Shown here: in pieces, positions 604-31,735 of the stretch
Position numbering within the stretch: the stretch's first letter is position 1
How the letters are laid out: the number at the start of each line of letters is the position of its first letter
Sequence record: ON528729
DNA from: Shigella phage ESh19
DNA length: 64,000 nt
Reading direction: 5' to 3' (one strand)
Notes under the pieces: generated by a model
The model's database searches: none
What the model was told of the DNA's origin: nothing
What the model saw: the letters and a program-made list of their open reading frames with translations, nothing else
Program-made: the position numbers and the translations under genes

Positions 604-922
604 GATATCTATCCAAGTTTCGTTTCAAGTAAATCCACTGGTCATCTGTGCGCTCTACACCCATGAACAGTGGGGCTACAACAACTTTACCAAAAGTATT
701 TCTGTGCTGGCAAATCTCGTAAGAGTACGGTTTATCAATATTTAAGCCATACTTATACAACACTGCTGCTAATACTTGTTCATTATCCAGAATCGTTTCT
801 GGCTTCTCTCCGTACTTGTCTAACAGTGAATCATTCATAAACACTGTCATAGAGAGGTTGTAGTTGGAGAAGTGGCTTTTTGCCACCACTTCTTCACCTT
901 TATTAATGTTCTGTGAATCCAT
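596..922 (-). CDS. hypothetical protein (108 aa)
   Basis: ORF track; overlaps neighbours by a few nt as in phage operons. Confidence 0.5.
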   Translation of the reverse strand: MDSQNINKGEEVVAKSHFSNYNLSMTVFMNDSLLDKYGEKPETILDNEQVLAAVLYKYGLNIDKPYSYEICQHRNTFGKVVVAPLFMGVERTDDQWIYLKRNLDRYHV

Positions 923-1658
923 TATAACCGACTCCTTTCAACCACTGCTTGAGGTTGATTGCATCATAATTCAATTTCGGATATGAGGTTACATGGAACT
1001 TCTCACCATCATAGTACACAATATCCGCAAGCCATAATCCATTCTCACGGCAGAAGTCTTTATCTGCTTTTGAAGAGATTGGTTCAACTTTAGAAAAGTT
1101 TTTAATGCCAAGACTACCAAGACTTCCAATCAGTCCTTGGCAGATAACGCATGTGTCAGATGTTACCACAAATAATTCTTTTGCGTCAACTTCTGCAATA
1201 AAACTTTCAAGTTGAACTTTTGGAAGATTAGACTGTTTCATAATCTTACCATCAGACTTGCGAATAATCGCAAACCACTCTTTACCTTCGATGATTGATT
1301 GACGCAGGTAACATTCATCACCAGTACGTTTCTCAATATCAAACATTCGCTGTAAAGCTTCTTGATAGTCGTCTGTGTATTTGAGGTTGTTGTTTTCACA
1401 AACAGCCTTGATAGCACCATCATGGTCATGTTGTGTCAGGAAAATTAAACCGTCAAGTACATACTGCAAATCAGCTTGAGCATCAAGGGTCTCAACAGGG
1501 TCTTTGGATTCTACTGCTGCGACTAACTCTCTAGCTTCTTCAAGCATACACAGAGATTGACTTTTCAGTGATTCCCAATACTCTGTGCTGTATGGTTCTT
1601 TTGGATTATTGCCACAACGTAGATTCCAATTTTTTACGGATTCTCTGGAATTAAACAT
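903..1658 (-). CDS. hypothetical protein (251 aa); weak MazG-like motif (LEEARELVAAVE ... LQYVLDGLIF)
   Basis: ORF track; motif similarity only. Confidence 0.45.
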   Translation of the reverse strand: MFNSRESVKNWNLRCGNNPKEPYSTEYWESLKSQSLCMLEEARELVAAVESKDPVETLDAQADLQYVLDGLIFLTQHDHDGAIKAVCENNNLKYTDDYQEALQRMFDIEKRTGDECYLRQSIIEGKEWFAIIRKSDGKIMKQSNLPKVQLESFIAEVDAKELFVVTSDTCVICQGLIGSLGSLGIKNFSKVEPISSKADKDFCRENGLWLADIVYYDGEKFHVTSYPKLNYDAINLKQWLKGVGYNGFTEH

Positions 1659-1888
1659 TAAGCCTCCTTATCTTCAAACAACTTTTGTTGAGACTCAATA
1701 TAGTCCATTCGTTCTTTGAGTTCAACACGTTTGCTTAACAGATGTTGAATTTGTGATTCCAGAGCATCCATCTCAGCTTCTGTAGCTGACTTAGCTTTGC
1801 TGATAGTTTCCTTCAGTGCTGCTACGCCACTCTGGATTTTAGAAACATGGTCATTTTTGATTTTATTAAACATTTTAAACTCTCTCAT
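1658..1888 (-). CDS. hypothetical coiled-coil protein (76 aa)
   Basis: ORF track. Confidence 0.4.
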   Translation of the reverse strand: MREFKMFNKIKNDHVSKIQSGVAALKETISKAKSATEAEMDALESQIQHLLSKRVELKERMDYIESQQKLFEDKEA

Positions 1889-2375
1889 TAAGTTTCATGA
1901 TTTTAGTGATTCTCTTCTCAGCTTCATCATAAGTCTCTTTTGTAAGAAACTTGATTGCTGCAATGTTCGCATTGTAGAAGAGTCGAAGCTTAGAGTCAAT
2001 CCTTTTTGTCATGACGTCAAACTTATGTTGTAGGTTAGCTTCGCCATAAACCAAGCCACCTCGCGTATAGTAAGTCTGGATGATGTAGAAGTCAAACTCT
2101 TTTTCACCAAAAGATTCAATATCCTTCTTAATGTATTCAGAAGATGTTTGATAAGTCATCCAATCACTTTCTTTTGTCACGACTTTACGTCTGGTCTTTC
2201 CAGCAACCTTTCTCTTAGTGACGTTATTAAATTGTTTCTTTCCAATATAATATTGTCCAGTTTTCTTACAGTATACTAAATAGACAAAACCAAAATAGTT
2301 AGCGGGGTCAATTTCCCCGCACAGTGAAATCCAATGTCCATAAACAGGGCAATTTCCAAATCCTTTAATCTTCAT
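1875..2375 (-). CDS. GIY-YIG family endonuclease (166 aa)
   Basis: Motif GFVYLVYCKKTGQYYIGKK (GIY ... YIG spacing), downstream conserved R/E/N; RBS GGGAG before ATG. Confidence 0.6.
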   Translation of the reverse strand: MKIKGFGNCPVYGHWISLCGEIDPANYFGFVYLVYCKKTGQYYIGKKQFNNVTKRKVAGKTRRKVVTKESDWMTYQTSSEYIKKDIESFGEKEFDFYIIQTYYTRGGLVYGEANLQHKFDVMTKRIDSKLRLFYNANIAAIKFLTKETYDEAEKRITKIMKLNERV

Positions 2376-3405
2376 TCATAACTGGCTCCCAATTGTATTT
2401 TTTAAACGTAAAATCATCTTTAGGATTTCGTTCTTGATAAGCAATCCAGAAGTGCTGCTCCATTAGTTCTAGTGGAGTTCTTGTCACAATCTGACCATCC
2501 CACGATTCATAAGTATATGACTCTTTCTTAGCATAAAGTTCATAGATTGCGTCTAAGCACTCTTTGTAGGTAGTTTTACCTTCCAGTGCATTCATCACCG
2601 CAACTTTACCAGCACCTTTTAAACCGAAGTAGTTATCTGCATTATCACCTGCTACAGCTTGATAGCAGAGGAATTTAAAACCTACCCCGACTGTCTTCTT
2701 AGCTTTCGGTTTAGATTTGATAGGGCAATCCCAAATCTCACCAACGTTATTATCTGCAATGAAAATTAATGGAGATTTCTCGTAAGTCATATCAATACAG
2801 TAAGTTCCTTCAGCTTGACGAAGGTCTTTATCAATACTCATCAGAGCAGCTTTTTTACCCATCTTCTCAGCTTTTGCAATAACGATAGAGTCTGCTTCGA
2901 AGCCCCCCTTTAGGAGCTTAAACTCTGGTCGTGACAGAAGATACTCACGACAAGCAACTAGGTGTGTAGGTGTTACAGCTTCTTTTCTGTTACCTTGGTA
3001 TTGGTGTTCAAGACCTTTGATATCCTTGTGTTTGTGAACACCTTTCTCAGTAAGGTAACCCATCCATTTGCGTTCTTTACCAACGACTTTCAACCACTCC
3101 TGAAGAACTTGCTGTGTAGCCATAATTGCTTCAGCTTCACTCTTAGCTTCTTTCCAAGTCTGTCTTTCCCATTCATCTTCATCAAAGTCAAGTCCTAACT
3201 CTTCAGTTAAAACTCTTTGGTCAGACAACCATTGTGCTGCCAGTTTTGCACTATCAAAAGCGTCGGATTCTTCAGCAGTGATTTTATTCACATACTTGTA
3301 CTTTGCTTTTTCAACTACACAAGCACCTTTGTAAGCAATGCTATCAGAGTCAATAAAGACGTGTGTAACGCTCTCTGGGAGCTTTGTTAAGGTGTATTGT
3401 TCCAT
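2365..3405 (-). CDS. 5'-3' exonuclease / flap endonuclease (FEN/RNase H-like)
   Basis: VFIDSDSIAYKGA matches N-terminal nuclease motif of 5' nucleases; GDNADNYFGLKGAGKVA matches H3TH motif; start refined to ATG 3405 with RBS GGAGAG (upstream ATGs lie inside terminator hairpin). Confidence 0.6.
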   Translation of the reverse strand: MEQYTLTKLPESVTHVFIDSDSIAYKGACVVEKAKYKYVNKITAEESDAFDSAKLAAQWLSDQRVLTEELGLDFDEDEWERQTWKEAKSEAEAIMATQQVLQEWLKVVGKERKWMGYLTEKGVHKHKDIKGLEHQYQGNRKEAVTPTHLVACREYLLSRPEFKLLKGGFEADSIVIAKAEKMGKKAALMSIDKDLRQAEGTYCIDMTYEKSPLIFIADNNVGEIWDCPIKSKPKAKKTVGVGFKFLCYQAVAGDNADNYFGLKGAGKVAVMNALEGKTTYKECLDAIYELYAKKESYTYESWDGQIVTRTPLELMEQHFWIAYQERNPKDDFTFKKYNWEPVMNED

Positions 3406-3420
3406 TGTACTCTCCATACG

Positions 3421-3450
3421 AAAAAGCCCCATACGTCTGTACAGGGCTTT
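3421..3450 (-). terminator. terminator-like hairpin (AAAGCCC...GGGCTTT, U-run on minus)
   Basis: Inverted repeat between stop of 3468..4328 and start of downstream gene. Confidence 0.4.
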
Positions 3451-3467: not shown

Positions 3468-4328
3468 TTACTCGTCGTCAGTTTCGAAATCATCTTCGTC
3501 GTCATCATCTGGGTTTGGTAGGTCGTCATCATCGTCATCACCACCTTTACCTTCATCACCAGAATCTTTTGCATCTTCTTCAGTGATTTCACCGTTATCT
3601 TCAACACCCGCAAGGCCAAGCATTGCCAGTTCATCTTCATCCAGTTCGGTTTCAGTAGCACCACCAGTACCACCAGTGTAAGGAACCAGAGTATCAATGA
3701 TGAATTGTTCCTGAATTGGCTTGGTCAGAACGTTACCTTCAAAAGTGTAGAAGTGAGTCGCCAGAATCACACTACCAAATGAACCGTTACCGACTGCAAT
3801 ATCTGGATGAATTACATCGTAAGTCTTGTCATCATCATGTTTGTCAGATTTTGCTGCCTTGATTTTCTTCATAGGCTGCTTAACTGCAACACGTTTACCG
3901 TTGATTTCTTCAACCAGCATTACAGGGAAACTCTGTTTTGCTGACCAAACAGCACCATCTTTGTATGCTGCTGAACGGCTAACCTTCAGGATGTGATAGG
4001 TTTCAGCTTCGAATGGAGGCTCACAACCAAACTTCTCTTCGAAGTCATCTGCATCAACAGCCTCTGTAGTAACTTTATCCCAACCTTCAGGATTCTTCTT
4101 AGTCTTGGTGAACTCTTTAAAGAGCTTGTTACCATCTTTTGCCAGAATTGAAACGCTGTAGTTACAATCTTTGCCCGGAAAATGCTTATCCACAGATTTA
4201 CCCTTTTGAGGGCGTGGAATAGTGTTCAGGTAATAGAACCAAACATCTTTCAGCAGGTAACGCAGAGTCTCACGTTCTTGACCATTGTACTTCTCTACCG
4301 GAGCTTTCATTTTAACAACTTTAGACAT
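3468..4328 (-). CDS. putative ssDNA-binding protein (acidic C-terminal tail)
   Basis: C-terminus DDDDDDLPNPDDDDEDDFETDDE typical of phage SSBs; located beside primase-helicase and exonuclease; RBS AAGAGG. Confidence 0.4.
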   Translation of the reverse strand: MSKVVKMKAPVEKYNGQERETLRYLLKDVWFYYLNTIPRPQKGKSVDKHFPGKDCNYSVSILAKDGNKLFKEFTKTKKNPEGWDKVTTEAVDADDFEEKFGCEPPFEAETYHILKVSRSAAYKDGAVWSAKQSFPVMLVEEINGKRVAVKQPMKKIKAAKSDKHDDDKTYDVIHPDIAVGNGSFGSVILATHFYTFEGNVLTKPIQEQFIIDTLVPYTGGTGGATETELDEDELAMLGLAGVEDNGEITEEDAKDSGDEGKGGDDDDDDLPNPDDDDEDDFETDDE

Positions 4329-4551: not shown

Positions 4552-4829
4552 GAATCTCTCCGATATATTTCATATTCAAAATGTTTATTAGTCAAGGTAA
4601 AGATGTAAACTGTGGACAAATTATCAATTGCTAATGCAAACATCTCAACATTGTCTTTTGATATATGTTCAAACTTTACTTTATGTCCCTTGTTGATGAG
4701 TACTTTACCGAACTGTTCTATCTTAGTCAAGCACTCATTTACAAATTTTTCTCTACTTTCTTCTGAATAGAAGGGTTCAAAACCCTCCTTCAGATAACTA
4801 TCAATCAGTTTCGAACGGACAGTCATCAT
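4548..4829 (-). CDS. hypothetical protein (93 aa)
   Basis: ORF track. Confidence 0.45.
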   Translation of the reverse strand: MMTVRSKLIDSYLKEGFEPFYSEESREKFVNECLTKIEQFGKVLINKGHKVKFEHISKDNVEMFALAIDNLSTVYIFTLTNKHFEYEIYRRDS

Positions 4830-6792
4830 TATCCTCGTTAATCACAGGTGGAATGGTAGAACTTTCACGTTGCTCTTGTGTGTAAATCTCTCCAGATTCA
4901 CGGTCAAAATCAACATCTTCATAGTGTGGCATAGAGTCATCGTAATGGTCTTCAGCCTCACCAATACCAAACTGCTGACGAATATTCTCTGCTGCACCAT
5001 CAATATCAACACCACATCCAGCAGCCTTTACAAGACGACCTGTATCTGGATTATACCAAGTGTGACCAGCAATACCAGTTGATTTACCATGACGACGACA
5101 TTTCGTTAACTTGATTTTTGTCAAGTTCTTTTTAACAGGGTCTGGGTCAACCTTGTTACGCATAAGCAAAATGTTGTTCATGGAAATCTGGAAGTATGCA
5201 CCAGAACCCTTGATATCTTCTTCAGAAATATCACCACCTTCAGAGTTGGCCTTTTGACCACCTGCACTCTTACGAACGTGACACACGTTTACCTGAGCAT
5301 ACTGGTAACGCTTACAGCGACGAAGTAACTCAGACAGAACTTCCTCTTCATCTGTATCAGAGCGTGACAGCGCCAATGTAATAGGGTCAAGGATGATAAT
5401 CTTACAATCAAGACTGTTAACCAGATAGTCAACAAACTCCAGCAGGTTATCTTGGTCAATTGCCCCTTGGTGGTCTACGATGTGAATACGACGACCTTTT
5501 GACAACTCAGCATGTGCAACCTTAATCTCATCCCAATTACGCTCATCGTAAGGAATCTCTGAAATCTGCTTACTAAGATGGATTGCACAGAGCATTTCCA
5601 TAAGTTCTTCGTAAGTATCTTCTACAGGAATTACACCGATGTTGTACTCAGTATCTTTCCATGCTTTGTAAATCATCTCACGAGTATATGCAGATTTACC
5701 TACAGATGAAGGTGCAGCAAGGGTTGTAATCTCACCTAAACCATACCCGCCATAAGTCAGCTTATTCAAATCCCCGAAAGAATCTGGGAAAGGAATTAAA
5801 GGAATCTGACCACGATTCTTCATAGCATCGAAACCATCTGCAAAGTTCTTGATACCAGCAGGGCAGTAACGAGGTGCATTGTAGATTCGTTGTTTAAATC
5901 CTTCTAAGACTGTATCTTTGTCTTTGAAGAACTTAGTCCACCACTCACTAAGGTCTTTAATACCTTCAGGATACTGGAACAGTCTTACTTTCTCAATAGG
6001 TAAGATACCAGCAGCTTCCTTAGTTGCTTTAGCCCCTGCTTCATCATTATCAAAGCATAGGTAAATCTCATCAAAGGAAGTAATATACTGATAGTTCTCT
6101 TTGATAGACTTAACATTAGCACCAGATGGTACAGAAACGTGGCAGTAATTCTTACGTCTAGACTTATCTTTAATTGCTAAAGAAGTCATGTAGATTGCTG
6201 TAGCACATTCCATCTCACCTTCCCAGATGAAAAGACGGTTACCACCTTCTGGAGCAATCCATGAACCGAACATAGCCAGTTCACCTTTAATATCTCCGAC
6301 ACCACCAGAAAAGTCTTTCAACTTCCCACGTAAGTGCTCTTTGTGATAGTCATCTGGATATTTGTGACGAACACGATAACCTACATGTTGCAACTTACCA
6401 TCTTCATCTTTTTTGTATGTTGGATAGAAATGTGCATCAATGTCGCCATTATCGTCAATATCAACTTTAATACCAAGACGCTCAAGGACTTTTGCAGGAA
6501 TCTTCCTGTCTTTTAAATCCATTGCTTCTAGGTTTTCTTTCACATCATCCAAATCCATACCACGAAATGTACGGTTTTTATTCTCTGAACCTGAAGTATG
6601 AGTACTCACAATCTGCCCTTTATCAAAATCCCACTCTGGAAAACCTTTTCCACAACTGAAACATGTCATTGAATATGAACCGTCATCATGACGATATATA
6701 GAACCTGCATCTGAAGATAAACATTGAGGGCGTGGACATGCACAGTGACCTACAAATGTTCCAGCATCTTTCAGTTTTCTCTGTTTAGCCAT
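4801..6792 (-). CDS. DNA primase/helicase (T7 gp4-like fusion)
   Basis: N-terminal Cys cluster (CACPRPQC...CFSC) zinc ribbon, TOPRIM-like region, C-terminal DnaB-like Walker A LAAPSSVGKS and Walker B IIILD; RBS AAGAGGTG. Confidence 0.8.
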   Translation of the reverse strand: MAKQRKLKDAGTFVGHCACPRPQCLSSDAGSIYRHDDGSYSMTCFSCGKGFPEWDFDKGQIVSTHTSGSENKNRTFRGMDLDDVKENLEAMDLKDRKIPAKVLERLGIKVDIDDNGDIDAHFYPTYKKDEDGKLQHVGYRVRHKYPDDYHKEHLRGKLKDFSGGVGDIKGELAMFGSWIAPEGGNRLFIWEGEMECATAIYMTSLAIKDKSRRKNYCHVSVPSGANVKSIKENYQYITSFDEIYLCFDNDEAGAKATKEAAGILPIEKVRLFQYPEGIKDLSEWWTKFFKDKDTVLEGFKQRIYNAPRYCPAGIKNFADGFDAMKNRGQIPLIPFPDSFGDLNKLTYGGYGLGEITTLAAPSSVGKSAYTREMIYKAWKDTEYNIGVIPVEDTYEELMEMLCAIHLSKQISEIPYDERNWDEIKVAHAELSKGRRIHIVDHQGAIDQDNLLEFVDYLVNSLDCKIIILDPITLALSRSDTDEEEVLSELLRRCKRYQYAQVNVCHVRKSAGGQKANSEGGDISEEDIKGSGAYFQISMNNILLMRNKVDPDPVKKNLTKIKLTKCRRHGKSTGIAGHTWYNPDTGRLVKAAGCGVDIDGAAENIRQQFGIGEAEDHYDDSMPHYEDVDFDRESGEIYTQEQRESSTIPPVINEDNDDCPFETD

Positions 6793-9264: not shown

Positions 9265-11964
9265 ATGGACAATGTAGATTTCGAAAAATTACATTTGGTT
9301 GGTGATACAGAAACTGATGGGTTGCTCCTTGAGTTTACAAAAGCACACGTAATGGCTTTCGCAGACTATAAAGATGACAGTGATGAACCTGCTGTGTGGG
9401 TTTTCACTGATGAGCCTATTCTTGGTCACAAGTACACAAAATACATCAAAGGTGGTCTGCGTGAAGGTGTTGAGTTTGCACTGAAAGCTAAACGTCTTTG
9501 CATACATAATGGTTTAGGTTATGACTGGTGGGTGTTTAATCACATTGCACCTGACCTGTGGAACTTTGAGAATCCTAAGTGCAAGCCTTGGAGTGACTTC
9601 TTTCAGGATTCACTTATCCAATCTCGCGTACAGTGGATGGATAGACCTACACCAAAAGGTTACAAAGGTGCTCATGGTTTGGCTGCATGGGGTGCTCGTG
9701 TTGGTGTTCGTAAACCAGAGATTGAAGAGTGGGGTGTCTGGAATGCAGAGATTCTTACTCGTGTTGTAGAAGATATTAAGATTAACGCCAAAACTAAACG
9801 TGCTCTTGATAATGAGTACCTCAAGCTTAAGAAGTGTGGTGTTGACACTTATGAAACCTACATGCGAGCTAAAGAAACATCTTTCTGGATGAGTCAGCAA
9901 GCTATCAACGGTTGGAAAGCTGATGTAGAACTTATGCAGTTCCACGTTAAAGAGCTTGACAAGTTAACTAATGAGTTGGCTGCTGAGGTTGAACCACACC
10001 TTCCACCAACTATTAAGACAAAAGGTAAAGTCACAGGTGAAGAATTTGCCAAGTCTTGGAATGAGTATGTAGATACATTTGGTCACGTTGACGGTTTAAA
10101 AAGGATTACCAAGTACCCTAAGACAAAGTATCGTGAACAGATGCGTGAAGGTGAGTTGAAGCAGTACCCTATCAAGCCATATGGTAAGCCAACCACAAAG
10201 ATTTTTAATGTTGAGAAACGCAACTGCTACACTCCAACTAACACGGTCACAAAAGAAGAGTACCCTGAAGGTTTTGTAGCAATGAAAGATGCTCGTGCAG
10301 TTTGTAATGAACTGAATGAGAAGATTGGCAAGAAGTGTAAAGATTGGAAGCCAGTTAAGACTGTGAAAACTGTGAAGTACTACAACGTTCACGTTGTTAA
10401 TCACTTTGAGTTAGAGTCTAGTCGCTACACTGGTTTGATTGATGCACCATTCACACCAATTGAGTTTGAAGTTTCACGAATGACTCAGGTAGCTGTGGTG
10501 AAGGATTACTTAAAATCCGTTGGCTGGATTCCTGATGATTGGAACTATAAAAAAGATTCTGACGGTCGTCCTATCAAGGTTTGCAGGTTCAAAGACAACA
10601 AAAAGATGATTCGCAAACATCCTAAGTGGGATGAGATGGTTGAACGTTGTGGGTTGAACTATATTGAGCATGAAGGTGTCTACTACATCGAGCATAACTG
10701 GTCTGTTAAGAAGTACACAGATGTGCTTGAGCCTTGCTTGATTAGGACTTCACCAAAGCTTACAGAATCTTCTTATGATACAATCGAAGGTGAGCTTGGA
10801 CAGAAGATTGCGAAGTACTATACTTTGATGCACCGACGCAGGACTATCGAGAACTCAAAGGATGATGAGAAAGGTTGGCTGAACCAGATTCGTCCAGATG
10901 GTCGTTTGAGTGCAGGTGCAATGGTGTTTGGTACTTCTACTGGACGTATGACTCAGTATGGTATTGTGAACGTACCTTCTGGTGCTGCTGTGTACGGTGA
11001 GCCAATGAGGGCAGTGTGGATTTGTGAAGAGGGAACCAACGTAGTATCTGTTGATATGAACTCTGCACAGCTTGTACTACTCTGTAACTTCATGGGTGAT
11101 AAAGATTTCACCAAAGCGGTAACAGAGGGTAAAGAAGAGATTGAGTTTGTTCGTCAAGAGGATGGAAGATACTACTGTAAACACTTTGACCAGTATCTGA
11201 ATCCAGAGATTGACAAGTATCTGCGTTACGACTCTGAAAACGATTTGTACGTAGTTTACTCAGGGACTGATGCTCATACCCTGAACAGTATCTACTTCAG
11301 CCTTAATGATGAGCAAGATATCTTGACTTGTCGTGCTACTCAGGATGAGAATCTTCTTCATGAGATTAGCAAGGGACGTAAGAAAGCTAAGAATGGTATC
11401 TATGCCCTGTTGTTCGGTGCAGGTGATGAGAAGTTTGCTAAAACAATTAAAGCAGCAACTACTCAGGAAGGTGCATTGACTAAGCAGACTTACTTTGTGC
11501 GTTTACCGAAGATTAAGAAACTGTTAGACAACTTGGAAGCTGATTTCAAAGCAACTAAGAAAGCACTTGAAGAGGTGTTTGGTAAGACTGCTGCAATAGC
11601 TAAAGGTGGATTTGTTCAGGTTGCTGGGGCGTGGTTGTGGTGTAAATCTCCACACAAACTCTTGAACTATCTGTTGATGGGTTCAGAAGCACAAGTTCAG
11701 AATGAAGCAATCAACCTTGCTTGTCGTCGTATGATTGATGAAGGTTTGATGAAACTAAATGGTCGTAAGCCAGCTATCGGTGCTCGTTTACTTTGTGCTT
11801 ACCACGACGAAACAAGCTGGGAATGCCCAGAAAGCATGACAGCAGAAGTTAAGGCAGTAACTGACTGGTATTATGGTCAAGCTTCTAAAAACTTGGGACT
11901 GAAGAAGGATACTTTGGTAACGGGTACTGGTAAGGTTGGTAAATCGTGGCTTGAAGTCCACTAA
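9265..11964 (+). CDS. DNA polymerase, family A (Pol I-like) with 3'-5' exonuclease domain
   Basis: Exo I DTETDGL; motif A VSVDMNSAQL; motif C YHDE; 899 aa; RBS GAGGGAG. Confidence 0.85.
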   Translation: MDNVDFEKLHLVGDTETDGLLLEFTKAHVMAFADYKDDSDEPAVWVFTDEPILGHKYTKYIKGGLREGVEFALKAKRLCIHNGLGYDWWVFNHIAPDLWNFENPKCKPWSDFFQDSLIQSRVQWMDRPTPKGYKGAHGLAAWGARVGVRKPEIEEWGVWNAEILTRVVEDIKINAKTKRALDNEYLKLKKCGVDTYETYMRAKETSFWMSQQAINGWKADVELMQFHVKELDKLTNELAAEVEPHLPPTIKTKGKVTGEEFAKSWNEYVDTFGHVDGLKRITKYPKTKYREQMREGELKQYPIKPYGKPTTKIFNVEKRNCYTPTNTVTKEEYPEGFVAMKDARAVCNELNEKIGKKCKDWKPVKTVKTVKYYNVHVVNHFELESSRYTGLIDAPFTPIEFEVSRMTQVAVVKDYLKSVGWIPDDWNYKKDSDGRPIKVCRFKDNKKMIRKHPKWDEMVERCGLNYIEHEGVYYIEHNWSVKKYTDVLEPCLIRTSPKLTESSYDTIEGELGQKIAKYYTLMHRRRTIENSKDDEKGWLNQIRPDGRLSAGAMVFGTSTGRMTQYGIVNVPSGAAVYGEPMRAVWICEEGTNVVSVDMNSAQLVLLCNFMGDKDFTKAVTEGKEEIEFVRQEDGRYYCKHFDQYLNPEIDKYLRYDSENDLYVVYSGTDAHTLNSIYFSLNDEQDILTCRATQDENLLHEISKGRKKAKNGIYALLFGAGDEKFAKTIKAATTQEGALTKQTYFVRLPKIKKLLDNLEADFKATKKALEEVFGKTAAIAKGGFVQVAGAWLWCKSPHKLLNYLLMGSEAQVQNEAINLACRRMIDEGLMKLNGRKPAIGARLLCAYHDETSWECPESMTAEVKAVTDWYYGQASKNLGLKKDTLVTGTGKVGKSWLEVH

Positions 11965-12025
11965 TAGTGTTGACAAGGTGCTCATGGAAGAGTACCTTAT
12001 ACTATATATTATATAGGAGACTTGT

Positions 12026-31098: not shown

Positions 31099-31325
31099 TA
31101 AATTTTACCTGCTTTTCTGAGTTCGTTGTAAGCCATTTCTTCTTTATATGACTTCTGGATTTCTAAATATTGACGTAGAGATAATAAATCAACGAAGGTC
31201 ATATCAAAAAGTTGGTTGAGTGTTTCTTTACACCCATCCATACCATAAATAGCAAGCACAAATTTCATCTCATCTGCTTCATCATAAGTTGCCTTTACAG
31301 CCCCGTCAGTCAGCGGGGTCTGCAT
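31098..31325 (-). CDS. tail assembly chaperone (75 aa)
   Basis: Small gene immediately upstream of tape measure. Confidence 0.4.
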   Translation of the reverse strand: MQTPLTDGAVKATYDEADEMKFVLAIYGMDGCKETLNQLFDMTFVDLLSLRQYLEIQKSYKEEMAYNELRKAGKI

Positions 31326-31333
31326 AGAATAAC

Positions 31334-31735
31334 TTAAGCTTCCTGTTGAGAAGTTAGGCTTTTGAAAATGCTTGCCTCGAAAAAACTTCCGAAGTTTGCC
31401 TCCAAAGCAAAAGCTAAAAAGTCAATAAATTCACCGTAGTTCGCTTGGAAGTAACTATCAATTTTCAGTGGGAAGTCATTAACTGTTGCCCCCTGAAATA
31501 GTGTCTCTGCCATTGCATCAATATCCAGTTCATCAACCTTTTCAAAGCAAGCTTCTACAAGCTCTTTAAAGGGAACTTTCACCTCTCCATCTTTTGAGGT
31601 TAGTCCAGAGAACATCTGTGCAAATGCTGGTACAACTGCTTTACCAAGCTTCATAGAGATACGGATACCATCTCTAGCTCCAAGAAGAATAATAGTTACC
31701 TTCTTGCCATTAATCATTTTAGTTTCAGTTTTCAT
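31334..31735 (-). CDS. tail assembly chaperone (133 aa)
   Basis: Position between tube and tape measure. Confidence 0.4.
   Translation of the reverse strand: MKTETKMINGKKVTIILLGARDGIRISMKLGKAVVPAFAQMFSGLTSKDGEVKVPFKELVEACFEKVDELDIDAMAETLFQGATVNDFPLKIDSYFQANYGEFIDFLAFALEANFGSFFEASIFKSLTSQQEA

What the first reader, a model, noticed from the sequence alone, without database searches (positions are those of the whole stretch)
1875..2375. Free-standing GIY-YIG endonuclease among replication genes
Clear GIY-YIG core (VYLVYCKKTGQYYIGKK) in a 166-aa protein wedged between the FEN-like exonuclease and upstream genes. It could be a homing endonuclease or a T4 endonuclease II-like host-DNA nuclease.
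Basis: seen in the sequence. Interest (0 to 1): 0.35.

Follow-up and report, generated by a model that had tools for sequence, protein, structure and literature searches.

The report
Fixed stand-alone GIY-YIG nuclease beside exonuclease
The 166-residue gene is a real GIY-YIG nuclease, but it is a permanently fixed, strongly conserved part of the replication gene block of all Felix O1-like phages rather than a mobile homing endonuclease, and it probably works with the neighbouring exonuclease.

Summary
Window 1875-2375 (-) encodes a 166-aa protein with the quoted motif. It matches Pfam SegE_GIY-YIG (E=9e-28) and gives a confident GIY-YIG fold (pLDDT 96.5; best solved match is the I-TevI catalytic domain).

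The window is a Felix O1-like (Ounavirinae) phage, about 94-98% identical to Shigella phage Sf13.

- The gene is in 305 phage records, against 303 for the adjacent exonuclease, with identical organism counts.
- It always sits in the same slot.
- Its identity tracks its neighbours, and dN/dS is 0.03-0.05.
- It has only the catalytic domain. Its long relatives carry NUMOD3 or HTH DNA-binding tails.

The polymorphic mobile element at this spot is an HNH gene that some relatives carry between the exonuclease and this gene. The window has the empty site.

It is not T4 EndoII-like by profile comparison (probability 0.3%). Its closest characterised relative is T4 SegE (96%). SUSP1 and SUSP2 carry a 93%-identical orthologue, and published work shows they leave host and plasmid DNA intact.

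In several unrelated T7-like replication modules, the short form again overlaps the end of a 5'-3' exonuclease, which is FEN-type in some and Cas4-type in others. The best reading is a domesticated endonuclease partnered with the exonuclease. That mechanism is inferred, not shown.

The parts
1875..2375 (-). 166-aa stand-alone SegE-type GIY-YIG nuclease (catalytic domain only)
   Evidence: ORF; Pfam PF19835 E=9e-28; AF2 pLDDT 96.5; I-TevI catalytic domain is the best PDB fold match; hhalign to T4 SegE probability 96.3%
2235..2291 (-). GIY...YIG motif block (G29 F30 V31 Y32 ... Y43 I44 G45 K46 K47), strands beta1-beta2 of the core
   Evidence: G29, Y32, Y43, G45 and K47 are invariant in the 82-sequence family alignment A2; strands at 29-36 and 42-48 in the model
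2169..2228 (-). Lys/Arg-rich beta-hairpin insertion (residues 50-69, NNVTKRKVAGKTRRKVVTKE). It is absent from T4 SegE and I-TevI and is inferred to be the DNA-contacting arm
   Evidence: Strands 50-55 and 64-69; a 16-19-residue gap opposite this stretch in the SegE and I-TevI alignments; the family consensus keeps G..RRK. DNA contact is an inference
2040..2042 (-). Codon of E112, the candidate metal-binding glutamate
   Evidence: Invariant in A1 and A2; lies in helix 105-118; aligned to a Glu of T4 SegE
1971..1973 (-). Codon of N135, the conserved Asn of the GIY-YIG core (Y134-N135)
   Evidence: Invariant in A1 and A2; aligned to the YYN of T4 SegE
2365..3432 (-). 5'-3' exonuclease (FEN/T7 gp6-like, phrog_107). 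Its stop overlaps the GIY-YIG start by 11 nt. Proposed functional partner
   Evidence: tblastn finds 303 records; homologous to the exonuclease that precedes a short GIY-YIG gene in metagenomic locus L022
2373..2390 (-). Junction: GGGAG (2390-2386) Shine-Dalgarno-like element, 10 nt, then ATG (2375-2373). The empty insertion site of the HNH_3/AP2 homing endonuclease gene carried by relatives lies at about 2389/2390
   Evidence: Sequence; alignment of empty and occupied alleles; HNH genes in FO1a gp105 and Moogle gp26
1658..1888 (-). Small coiled-coil ORF (phrog_4442), always downstream. The start is probably the ATG at 1873, 1 nt after the GIY-YIG stop; the alternative ATG at 1888 would overlap by 14 nt
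   Evidence: the PHROG match starts at residue 6; the Sf13 annotation starts at the equivalent of 1873
903..1658 (-). MazG-like pyrophosphatase, same transcription direction and same conserved block
   Evidence: Pfam PRA-PH E=1e-6; phrog_2144 E=7e-96
3468..4328 (-). phrog_3877 protein with a long acidic C-terminal tail, in the position that a gp2.5-like SSB occupies in related modules (an inference, not shown)
   Evidence: no PDB sequence hit; only a 26-residue local match to a phrog_112 protein, E=0.003
4801..6792 (-). T7 gp4-like primase/helicase, which heads the same gene block
   Evidence: Toprim_2 and DnaB_C hits; phrog_239 E=4e-181

Best explanation
This is a vertically inherited, fixed core gene of Felix O1-like phages (Ounavirinae). 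It encodes only the catalytic domain of a SegE/I-TevI-type GIY-YIG endonuclease, so it is a domesticated relative of Seg-like homing endonucleases that lacks their sequence-reading DNA-binding tail.

Shown:
- It has the GIY-YIG fold.
- The motif residues Y32, Y43, G45, K47, Y75, E112 and N135 are invariant.
- It is universally present in one genomic slot.
- It is under strong purifying selection.
- It is tightly coupled (11-nt stop/start overlap) to the upstream 5'-3' exonuclease, inside a T7-like replication and nucleotide-metabolism block.

Inferred:
- It is a Mg2+-dependent DNA endonuclease of low sequence specificity or of structure specificity.
- The conserved Lys/Arg-rich beta-hairpin (residues 50-69) supplies the DNA contacts that a separate domain supplies in homing enzymes.
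- It nicks or cuts replication/recombination intermediates (nicks, flaps, branches), creating or clearing substrates for the co-expressed exonuclease. Functionally this parallels the T7 endonuclease I + gene 6 exonuclease pair, but without wholesale destruction of host DNA.

My probabilities: about 0.9 that it is a fixed, functional, non-homing nuclease; about 0.4 for the specific exonuclease-partner, phage-DNA-processing mechanism.
For: Nuclease identity.

Catalytic residues: invariant in 9 Ounavirinae-like sequences and in 82 diverse family members.

Fixation: tblastn at E<=1e-20 finds the gene in 305 records, 302 of them with >=80% coverage, against 303 records for the exonuclease. The top-ten organism counts are identical: Escherichia 120, Salmonella 80, Erwinia 29, Shigella 22, Felixounavirus 14, Citrobacter 11, Enterobacteria 9, Pectobacterium 4, Phage 3, Hafnia 3.

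Same slot in Felixounavirus, Mooglevirus, Suspvirus, Kolesnikvirus, and the Hafnia and Pectobacterium phages.

Co-divergence and selection: amino-acid identity to Moogle/Silverhawkium/SUSP1/FO1a/Hafnia phage/phiEa21-4/Arno162 is 98/93/93/84/61/60/51% for this gene and 93/95/93/89/60/53/52% for the exonuclease. Omega is 0.025-0.05, like the primase-helicase.

Domain-only architecture: long relatives carry NUMOD3 or HTH tails and this protein does not.

The real mobile element at this junction is an HNH_3/AP2 gene that is present in some relatives and absent in others.

Exonuclease linkage outside the subfamily: short GIY-YIG genes overlap the 3' end of a FEN-type exonuclease (L022) or of a non-homologous Cas4-domain exonuclease (L019, L023, L029; L026 has the same gene order with a 283-aa upstream gene I did not scan) in T7-like modules with primase-helicase, PolA, gp2.5-like SSB and RNR.

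No resolvase or other structure-specific endonuclease is annotated in the closest genome, Sf13, and none was recognised among 10 further replication-block and flanking ORFs of the window.
Against: No biochemical or genetic data exist for this protein or for any close relative. The mechanism rests on gene neighbourhood and analogy.

The adjacency is not universal for the short form. In cyanomyoviruses, Menderavirus and several metagenomic contigs it is solitary, on the opposite strand, or next to other homing-endonuclease genes. In roseophage CRP-7 the exonuclease is 3 kb away.

The exonuclease-adjacent contigs carry the closest relatives of the window protein (47-52% identity for P0010, P0193 and P0198; 41-44% for P0207 and P0218). 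The adjacency may therefore partly reflect shared ancestry of one module rather than repeated selection.

The canonical Arg of the GIY-YIG site (I-TevI R27) has no identified counterpart.

A hidden resolvase among the many hypothetical proteins cannot be excluded.

The isolated catalytic domain of I-TevI is a poor enzyme by itself (my own knowledge), so a domain-only protein might need an unidentified partner.
Confidence: 0.55

Rival explanations
1. It is an active free-standing (Seg-type) homing endonuclease. It cuts a cognate site in genomes that lack it and is copied in by repair.
For: It belongs to the same Pfam family as T4 SegE, with hhalign probability 96% to SegE. Many family members are classic long forms with NUMOD3/HTH tails in homing-endonuclease-like positions. 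GenBank records often call it 'GIY-YIG homing endonuclease'. Felix O1-like genomes are rich in homing endonuclease genes (PMC3185647).
Against: There is no presence/absence polymorphism in about 300 genomes. Divergence is ancient and parallel to the neighbours, with omega 0.03-0.05. There is no DNA-binding domain. The gene overlaps or abuts both neighbours in one operon. No gene-less allele exists for it to home into. The polymorphic element at this junction is a different gene, an HNH.
Confidence: 0.05
2. It is a T4 endonuclease II-like host-DNA nuclease. It nicks or cuts the bacterial chromosome early in infection so that exonucleases can recycle it into nucleotides.
For: Like T4 DenA it is small and domain-only. 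It lies in a block with the exonuclease, MazG, dNMP kinase and ribonucleotide reductases, as denA lies next to nrdB in T4. The exonuclease adjacency would also fit host-DNA salvage as in T7 (gp3 + gp6; my own knowledge).
Against: It is not a member of the EndoII family: hhalign probability 0.3%, with only 24 columns aligned over the motif, and EndoII is not among the best 50 fold matches. SUSP1/SUSP2, whose orthologue is 93% identical, release intact transformable plasmids, and SUSP2 lysates held >30-fold more chromosomal rpoS copies than T4 lysates (PMC5241400). I know of no DNA modification that would spare the phage's own DNA. The phage carries a full de novo dNTP supply (aerobic and anaerobic RNR, ThyA, DHFR).
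Confidence: 0.12
3. It is a conflict nuclease. It destroys nucleic acids of host defence systems (for example retron msDNA) or DNA of co-infecting competitor phages or satellites, as a domesticated homing-endonuclease derivative.
For: There are precedents for domesticated homing-endonuclease-like nucleases in phage conflicts (ICP1 Odn, PMC8263062; PLE CapR, PMC8096241; listed, abstracts only). A Bas63 screen reports that a gene described as having a GIY-YIG domain ('gene 77') counters retron Ec67 (PMC11482910). NAD-salvage counter-defence genes are also conserved across this subfamily.
Against: By locus tag, Bas63 gene 77 is a different protein with no detectable GIY-YIG domain and an HNH-like motif. 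The orthologue of the window gene is bas63_0057, and the paper's text does not mention it. Universal presence, a fixed position inside the replication operon and omega as low as the replisome genes are unusual for counter-defence genes.
Confidence: 0.15
4. It is catalytically dead, or it is not a nuclease at all: either a DNA-binding or regulatory relic, or the 'NAD synthetase' named in RefSeq and PHROG annotation.
For: The label 'NAD synthetase' appears on phrog_447 and on many RefSeq records. The canonical Arg of the GIY-YIG site is not identifiable.
Against: No NAD-synthase or any other Pfam domain is found up to E=1; only SegE_GIY-YIG. The GIY-YIG fold is confidently predicted. Tyr/Tyr/Glu/Asn are invariant across 82 diverse homologues, including clear homing-endonuclease forms. 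A relic would not keep omega at about 0.03 on exactly these residues.
Confidence: 0.03

Closest known systems
Phage T4 SegE (and other Seg free-standing GIY-YIG homing endonucleases)
   Same: Same Pfam family (PF19835). hhalign probability 96.3%, E=1.6e-9, over the whole catalytic domain (residues 28-142 against SegE 2-90). Shared Y...YIGK, Y.GS(S/G), E and YYN positions.
   Different: SegE is 205 aa with a C-terminal DNA-binding region and is optional among T-even phages (my own knowledge). The window protein has no such region. It has an extra 27-residue N-terminal extension (invariant H14-W15) and a 16-19-residue basic beta-hairpin that SegE lacks. It is fixed in its lineage. Pairwise BLASTP similarity is marginal (E=0.045).
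I-TevI catalytic domain (PDB 1ln0/1mk0)
   Same: It is the best solved-structure match to the model (Foldseek probability 0.97, TM 0.67 on target length). The GIY/YIG strands and the following helix align.
   Different: Sequence identity is only 11-13%. The I-TevI helix carrying R27/H31 is replaced here by the basic hairpin and a W72..Y75..S78 loop. I-TevI is intron-encoded and tethered to a zinc-finger/minor-groove/HTH DNA-binding region (my own knowledge).
Phage T4 endonuclease II (DenA)
   Same: A small, single-domain GIY-YIG protein encoded among nucleotide-metabolism genes.
   Different: No family-level similarity (hhalign probability 0.3%). Not retrieved by fold search. Phages carrying the orthologue do not destroy host or plasmid DNA (PMC5241400).
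Phage T7 endonuclease I (gp3) + exonuclease (gp6) pair (functional analogy only)
   Same: An endonuclease and a 5'-3' exonuclease encoded together in a gp4-type primase-helicase / PolA / gp2.5-type SSB replication module.
   Different: T7 endonuclease I has a different fold (not GIY-YIG; my own knowledge). The T7 pair degrades host DNA, which the SUSP phages do not appear to do. Any junction-resolving activity of the window protein is untested.
Short 'NAD synthetase' proteins of T4-like cyanophages (Kyanoviridae) and Menderavirus
   Same: Same domain-only architecture (146-156 aa) and same Pfam family (E=1e-55 and 2e-45). They are 33-37% identical to the window protein. They are widely conserved: 406 cyanophage records, mostly at 58-100% identity to one another.
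   Different: They are solitary genes that are not next to an exonuclease or replication genes. Their function is equally unknown.
Domesticated homing-endonuclease derivatives (ICP1 Odn, PLE CapR)
   Same: They are a precedent that homing-endonuclease-derived proteins become fixed and take on functions for their carrier (PMC8263062, PMC8096241; seen).
   Different: They are different families with different functions (anti-satellite nuclease; transcriptional repressor), and I did not read them in detail here.

Membership tests
GIY-YIG nuclease superfamily | Three-stranded sheet flanked by helices (beta-beta-alpha-beta-alpha core) | tested here: met
   AF2 model pLDDT 96.5 with strands 29-36, 42-48 and 94-102 and helices 80-89 and 105-118. 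The best PDB match is the I-TevI catalytic domain, probability 0.97.
GIY-YIG nuclease superfamily | 'GIY' and 'YIG' motifs about 10 residues apart on the first two strands | tested here: met
   G29-F30-V31-Y32 and Y43-I44-G45. G29, Y32, Y43 and G45 are invariant in 82 homologues.
GIY-YIG nuclease superfamily | Conserved Arg after the YIG motif (I-TevI R27) | tested here: inconclusive
   The helix that carries it in I-TevI is replaced by a basic hairpin. The alignments leave it unassigned. Invariant K47 or a hairpin Arg could substitute.
GIY-YIG nuclease superfamily | Metal-binding Glu and conserved Asn (I-TevI E75, N90) | tested here: met
   E112 and N135 are invariant and align with the Glu and the YYN of T4 SegE.
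Pfam PF19835 SegE_GIY-YIG | Score above the curated gathering threshold | tested here: met
   97.4 bits against 25; E=9.3e-28.
Free-standing homing endonuclease (Seg type) | Nuclease domain joined to a sequence-reading DNA-binding module (NUMOD/HTH) | tested here: not met
   The single Pfam domain fills the protein, and the family profile matches residues ~8-164. Long relatives P0012, P0025 and P0035 have NUMOD3 and P0019 has an HTH.
Free-standing homing endonuclease (Seg type) | Sporadic presence among otherwise collinear close relatives | tested here: not met
   305 records with the gene against 303 with the neighbouring exonuclease, with identical organism counts. Same slot in every genome inspected.
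Free-standing homing endonuclease (Seg type) | Evolutionary history decoupled from flanking genes, or decay after fixation | tested here: not met
   Identity tracks the exonuclease across all seven comparisons, and omega is 0.025-0.05.
Free-standing homing endonuclease (Seg type) | Cleaves the gene-less allele near the insertion point | not testable with these tools
   No gene-less allele was found. It needs enzyme assays.
T4 endonuclease II (DenA) family | Sequence/profile membership | tested here: not met
   hhalign of the family alignment against T4 DenA gives probability 0.3%, with 24 columns aligned over the motif only. EndoII is not among the top 50 fold matches.
T4 endonuclease II (DenA) family | Initiates breakdown of host DNA during infection | not testable with these tools
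   Published data on SUSP1/SUSP2 (93%-identical orthologue) point the other way: intact plasmids, and >30x more host rpoS copies in SUSP2 lysates than in T4 lysates (PMC5241400).
NAD synthetase (label on phrog_447 and RefSeq records) | NAD-synthase (ATP pyrophosphatase) domain | tested here: not met
   There are no Pfam hits other than SegE_GIY-YIG up to E=1. The same holds for the cyanophage and Mendera proteins with this label.
Structure-specific or junction-resolving endonuclease (functional class: T7 endo I, T4 endo VII, Slx1) | Preferential cleavage of branched, flap or junction DNA | not testable with these tools
   Only indirect evidence: no recognisable resolvase in the Sf13 annotation or in 10 ORFs scanned, and the exonuclease adjacency.

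The most novel reading that the evidence does not exclude
The short SegE-type GIY-YIG protein is the so far unrecognised structure-specific endonuclease of a large class of T7-like replication modules: Ounavirinae plus many uncultivated phages. It acts as an obligate partner of whichever 5'-3' exonuclease (FEN-type or Cas4-type) the module carries, processing branches, flaps or nicks in replicating phage DNA. Related domain-only copies fixed in cyanomyoviruses, and mislabelled there as an 'NAD synthetase' auxiliary metabolic gene, would be a parallel domestication of a homing-endonuclease nuclease domain.
Probability: 0.3. Interest if true: 0.6.

Novelty: new variant of a known kind. Interest (0 to 1): 0.4.

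Why it matters
The gene is already in databases. It is 100% identical to an annotated Sf13 protein, and it is labelled variously as 'GIY-YIG homing endonuclease', 'NAD synthetase', 'HNH endonuclease' or hypothetical. What is new is the reading.

It is a catalytic-domain-only homing-endonuclease relative that has become a strictly conserved core gene of about 300 Felix O1-like phages. Many of these phages are used or proposed for Salmonella and E. coli biocontrol. It is physically coupled to a 5'-3' exonuclease, and that arrangement recurs with a non-homologous exonuclease in other phage replication modules.

If the partner model holds, three things follow:
- It would identify a missing DNA-processing enzyme of these replisomes.
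- It would give a clear case of domestication of a selfish nuclease.
- It bears on the 'superspreader' argument that SUSP-type phages encode no hydrolytic endonucleases (PMC5241400). They do encode at least this nuclease-fold protein.

It also flags an annotation error. 'NAD synthetase' for this family has entered the cyanophage auxiliary-metabolic-gene literature (PMC7238727, PMC10452541).

Tried and rejected
- Sequence searches of the PDB found nothing useful. I tried the single protein and the 82-sequence profile. I-TevI scored E=1.5 over the motif only, and the other weak hits (1ia9, 4r6i) are chance.
- NCBIfam gave only a sub-threshold group I intron endonuclease hit, and PADLOC gave nothing.
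- Literature searches for 'GIY-YIG' with 'Felix O1', and for the gene in Felixounavirus comparative papers and the Felix O1 genome paper, found no discussion of it.
- I suspected that the 'fractured genes' paper might describe this family. It does not.
- I looked for evidence that cyanophages lack a resolvase in the F-CphI paper. It was not informative.
- I followed the Bas63 'gene 77 GIY-YIG anti-retron' lead and rejected it as evidence for this gene. By locus tag it is another, HNH-like protein. The per-gene fitness of the true orthologue (bas63_0057) is not in the text, and the supplements are not held.
- I tested whether the distant relative Nitrincola phage 1M3-16 keeps the gene. It has a NADAR-domain gene in that slot instead.
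- Promoter and terminator scans were no better than shuffled sequence.
- I tried to show that the phrog_3877 neighbour is a gp2.5-like SSB. There was no PDB hit and only a 26-residue local match, so this remains an inference.
- I could not inspect the active-site geometry, because model coordinates are not exposed to the scripting tool.
Full report
OBSERVATION

It matches Pfam PF19835 (SegE_GIY-YIG) at E=9.3e-28, 97 bits against a cut-off of 25, over residues 22-138. It matches phrog_447 end to end at E=7e-48. That family carries the label 'NAD synthetase', for which I found no support: no other Pfam domain appears up to E=1.

All neighbours lie on the same strand. In transcription order they are:
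- a gp4-like primase-helicase (4801-6792);
- two small ORFs;
- a phrog_3877 protein with an acidic tail (3468-4328);
- a 5'-3' exonuclease (2365-3432, phrog_107);
- the GIY-YIG gene;
- a small coiled-coil ORF (1658-1888);
- a MazG-like gene (903-1658).

The exonuclease stop overlaps the GIY-YIG start by 11 nt, with GGGAG 10 nt upstream of the ATG. The GIY-YIG stop is 1 nt from the likely start of the next ORF (ATG 1873), or overlaps it by 14 nt if ATG 1888 is used.

WHAT THE WINDOW IS

The first 8 kb is 98% identical to Shigella phages ESh20, KPS64 and Sf13 and to other Mooglevirus members. It is 82-92% identical to other Felix O1-like phages (subfamily Ounavirinae). The protein is 100% identical to the Sf13 protein, which GenBank calls 'GIY-YIG homing endonuclease' and RefSeq calls 'NAD synthetase'.

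- **Counts.** At E<=1e-20, tblastn finds the GIY-YIG protein in 305 phage records, 302 of them with >=80% coverage in one piece. The adjacent exonuclease is found in 303. The ten commonest organism names have identical counts in both searches: Escherichia 120, Salmonella 80, Erwinia 29, Shigella 22, Felixounavirus 14, Citrobacter 11, Enterobacteria 9, Pectobacterium 4, Phage 3, Hafnia 3.
- **Synteny.** The order exonuclease - GIY-YIG - small ORF - MazG-like holds in Felix O1/FO1a, phiEa21-4 (Kolesnikvirus), Pectobacterium phage Arno162, Hafnia phage SarahDanielle, Moogle, Silverhawkium, SUSP1 and Bas63.
- **Co-divergence.** Amino-acid identity to these relatives falls in step with the exonuclease: 98/93/93/84/61/60/51% against 93/95/93/89/60/53/52%.
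- **Selection.** Nei-Gojobori omega is 0.025-0.05 in the four comparisons where dS can be estimated and identity is at least 84% (dS is already 1.7-4 in two of them). This equals the primase-helicase (0.02-0.06) and is lower than MazG.
- **Limit of the lineage.** A more distant phage with a similar module, Nitrincola 1M3-16, has a NADAR-domain gene in this slot. The gene therefore characterises Ounavirinae proper.

There is no presence/absence polymorphism. The gene is old, vertically inherited and under strong purifying selection.

THE TRUE MOBILE ELEMENT AT THIS JUNCTION

FO1a, Moogle, wV8 and many others carry a roughly 0.5-kb insert with a 112-171-aa HNH_3/AP2 endonuclease gene between the exonuclease and the GIY-YIG gene. 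The window, Sf13, SUSP1, Silverhawkium, Bas63 and phiEa21-4 do not. Alignment of occupied and empty alleles places the insertion within the last few codons of the exonuclease, just before the GIY-YIG ribosome-binding site, at about window 2389/2390. This is what a homing endonuclease gene looks like in these genomes, and the GIY-YIG gene does not behave that way.

ANATOMY OF THE PROTEIN

A profile search of 1.84 billion representative proteins finds 2,271 relatives (E<=1e-3). The match spans almost the whole protein, positions about 8-164. Lengths among the best 150 are bimodal. About 50 are 130-170 aa, that is the domain only. About 80 are 210-390 aa. The long forms tested carry NUMOD3 repeats or an HTH at the C-terminus, which is the classic bipartite homing-endonuclease design. 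The window protein is the short kind.

In an alignment of 82 diverse members, G29, Y32, Y43, G45, K47, W72, Y75, S78, E112 and N135 are invariant.

With that alignment AlphaFold2 gives pLDDT 96.5 and pTM 0.90. The model has:
- an N-terminal strand region (invariant H14-W15 within Ounavirinae);
- beta1 (29-36, GIY) and beta2 (42-48, YIG);
- a beta-hairpin at 50-55/64-69 that carries KRKVAGKTRRK;
- helix 80-89, strand 94-102 and helix 105-118 (with E112);
- a long loop containing N135;
- a terminal helix 150-164.

Foldseek against the PDB returns only the I-TevI catalytic domain as a credible match: probability 0.97, TM 0.67 on target length. Against predicted viral structures it returns SegE-like proteins, both short and long.

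Profile-profile comparison gives T4 SegE probability 96.3% (E=1.6e-9, whole domain), I-TevI 8% and T4 endonuclease II 0.3%. SegE and I-TevI both lack the basic hairpin. The canonical Arg of the active site could not be assigned. I could not inspect coordinates.

EVIDENCE BEARING ON FUNCTION

(a) Against bulk host-DNA degradation. Keen et al. 2017 (PMC5241400) showed that SUSP1 and SUSP2 release intact, transformable plasmids. SUSP2 lysates held more than 30-fold more chromosomal rpoS copies than T4 lysates. The authors believed these phages encode no homologues of known hydrolytic endonucleases. SUSP1 carries an orthologue 93% identical to the window protein, in the same slot.

(b) For a link with the exonuclease. 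I looked up the genomic context of ten short family members from metagenomes and one roseophage.
- Five contigs have T7-like modules, with PolA and RNR in all five, a primase-helicase in three, and a gp2.5-like SSB identified in two. In these the short GIY-YIG gene starts inside the end of the upstream gene.
- That upstream gene is a phrog_107 (FEN-type) exonuclease in L022 (52-nt overlap).
- It is a non-homologous Cas4-domain (PD-(D/E)XK) exonuclease in L019, L023 and L029 (4-23-nt overlaps). L026 has the same gene order with a 283-aa upstream gene that I did not scan.
- Three of these carry the closest non-Ounavirinae relatives of the window protein (47-52% identity); the L023 and L026 proteins are 41-44% identical.

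Keeping the adjacency while the exonuclease type is swapped argues for a functional pair.

(c) Counter-examples. In cyanomyoviruses, Menderavirus and five other contigs the short gene is solitary, often on the opposite strand, or next to another homing-endonuclease gene. In roseophage CRP-7 it is in the replication block but 3 kb from the exonuclease. Short forms are therefore not all alike, and some may be homing-endonuclease fragments.

(d) No competing enzyme seen. The closest fully annotated genome, Sf13, lists no Holliday-junction resolvase or recombination endonuclease. Ten further ORFs of the window gave no such hit in PHROGs. This is weak negative evidence.

(e) A rejected lead. A Bas63 knockout screen (PMC11482910) reports a 'GIY-YIG' gene 77 that counters retron Ec67. 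By locus tag, gene 77 is a different protein without a detectable GIY-YIG domain and with an HNH-like motif. The true orthologue is bas63_0057, for which the text gives no score.

INTERPRETATION

Shown:
- The gene encodes a real GIY-YIG-fold protein with the conserved Tyr/Tyr/Glu/Asn set.
- It has only the catalytic domain.
- It is fixed, syntenic, co-diverging and strongly constrained in about 300 genomes.
- It is tightly coupled to a 5'-3' exonuclease.
- It is related to Seg-type homing endonucleases and not to T4 EndoII.

Inferred:
- It is an active endonuclease of low sequence specificity or of structure specificity.
- Its basic hairpin replaces the missing DNA-binding domain.
- It works with the exonuclease on replicating or recombining phage DNA rather than on the host chromosome.

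I put about 0.9 on 'fixed functional nuclease, not a homing element' and about 0.4 on the exonuclease-partner mechanism. The rivals are an active homing endonuclease (0.05), an EndoII-like host-DNA nuclease (0.12), a conflict or counter-defence nuclease (0.15), and an inactive protein or NAD synthetase (0.03).

NOVELTY AND SCORE

The gene and its family are already catalogued, so the sequence feature itself is not new. The reading is a modest new variant of a known kind: a domesticated, domain-only Seg-type nuclease that is a core replication-block gene, with recurrent exonuclease coupling across non-homologous exonucleases. It rests on comparative evidence only. Interest 0.4.

CAVEATS

- Counts refer to one phage collection (release of August 2025).
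- About 1% of records have broken or partial copies.
- dS is saturated in the distant comparisons.
- The neighbourhood sample is small (11 loci) and partly phylogenetically linked.

Noticed in passing
window ~2389/2390 (between the exonuclease 3' end and the GIY-YIG RBS); occupied alleles L001:4486-5001 and L009:2872-3210: This is the empty site of a genuinely polymorphic HNH_3/AP2 homing endonuclease gene. FO1a, Moogle, wV8 and many others carry a roughly 0.5-kb insert here. The window, Sf13, SUSP1, Silverhawkium, Bas63 and phiEa21-4 lack it. The insertion rewrites the last few exonuclease codons and keeps the GIY-YIG ribosome-binding site.
   Followed up: yes
window ~11965-11975 (just after the DNA polymerase gene 9265-11964): The window lacks a ~525-bp segment that in Sf13 encodes an HNH endonuclease (gp104) directly downstream of the DNA polymerase. 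This is a second homing-endonuclease presence/absence difference from the closest relative.
   Followed up: partly
window 4801-4830 (primase-helicase C-terminus ...DDCPFETD) and 3468-3500 (phrog_3877 C-terminus ...DDFETDDE): Both proteins end in acidic tails that share an F-E-T-D motif. This resembles the acidic, aromatic-ended C-termini by which T7 gp4 and gp2.5 bind the polymerase (my own knowledge). It would fit phrog_3877 being the SSB. Direct similarity to gp2.5-like proteins was only marginal.
   Followed up: partly
window 2302-2320, minus strand, inside the GIY-YIG ORF (codons 19-25): A terminator-like hairpin GCGGGG-AAATTGA-CCCCGC followed by a T-rich stretch lies within the coding sequence. 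It is conserved in Mooglevirus and Suspvirus alleles but not in FO1a or phiEa21-4, so it is probably incidental or lineage-specific.
   Followed up: partly
L004:4941-5381 (Synechococcus phage ACG-2014d), L005:4917-5387 (Stenotrophomonas phage Mendera), L018:3944-4429 (roseophage CRP-7): Domain-only SegE_GIY-YIG proteins (Pfam E=1e-55 and 2e-45 for the first two) are annotated 'NAD synthetase'. They occur in 406 cyanophage records. Two papers count 'NAD synthetase' as a cyanophage auxiliary metabolic gene (PMC7238727, PMC10452541), which looks like a propagated misannotation.
   Followed up: partly
L007:6020-6454 (Nitrincola phage 1M3-16): In a distantly related phage with the same primase-helicase / PolA / exonuclease / MazG / RNR layout, the slot after the exonuclease holds a NADAR-domain protein (Pfam E=2e-20) instead of the GIY-YIG gene.
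   Followed up: yes
L017:2449-2964 (Bas63 bas63_0077): A preprint (PMC11482910) describes Bas63 'gene 77' as a GIY-YIG-domain protein that counters retron Ec67. The protein with that locus tag has no detectable GIY-YIG domain. It has a weak HNH PHROG hit and an HNH-like motif (HHKPVTKGGEHHCANW). Either the domain call or the numbering in the preprint needs checking.
   Followed up: partly
L021:3181-4495: A short GIY-YIG gene (164 aa) is preceded by, and overlaps, a 277-aa ORF matching a homing-endonuclease PHROG with a weak NUMOD3 hit. Both lie on the opposite strand to their neighbours. This may be a split or tandem homing endonuclease, in which case some short forms could get their DNA-binding part in trans.
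   Followed up: no
public records GU169904 (Staphylococcus phage SA1) and MG065668 (Campylobacter phage A126): Records named for Gram-positive and Campylobacter hosts contain Felix O1-like GIY-YIG genes at ~87% protein identity to the window, and SA1 also the exonuclease at 91%. These are probably contaminated or mis-assigned assemblies.
   Followed up: no
BFVD entries K4IC63 and K4I3J2 (Escherichia phage EC6); proteins P0007 and P0008: In a few Felixounavirus records the gene appears as two half-length ORFs (87 + 91 aa) or as ~95-aa fragments. These are either frameshift sequencing errors or rare pseudogenes. About 3 of 305 records lack a full-length copy in one piece.
   Followed up: no
window 31140-31387: The two ends of the Sf13 record (1-248 and 87323-87570) both align to this single 248-bp stretch of the window. 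Sf13 is therefore deposited with a short terminal direct repeat, and the window comes from a differently permuted or opened genome.
   Followed up: no
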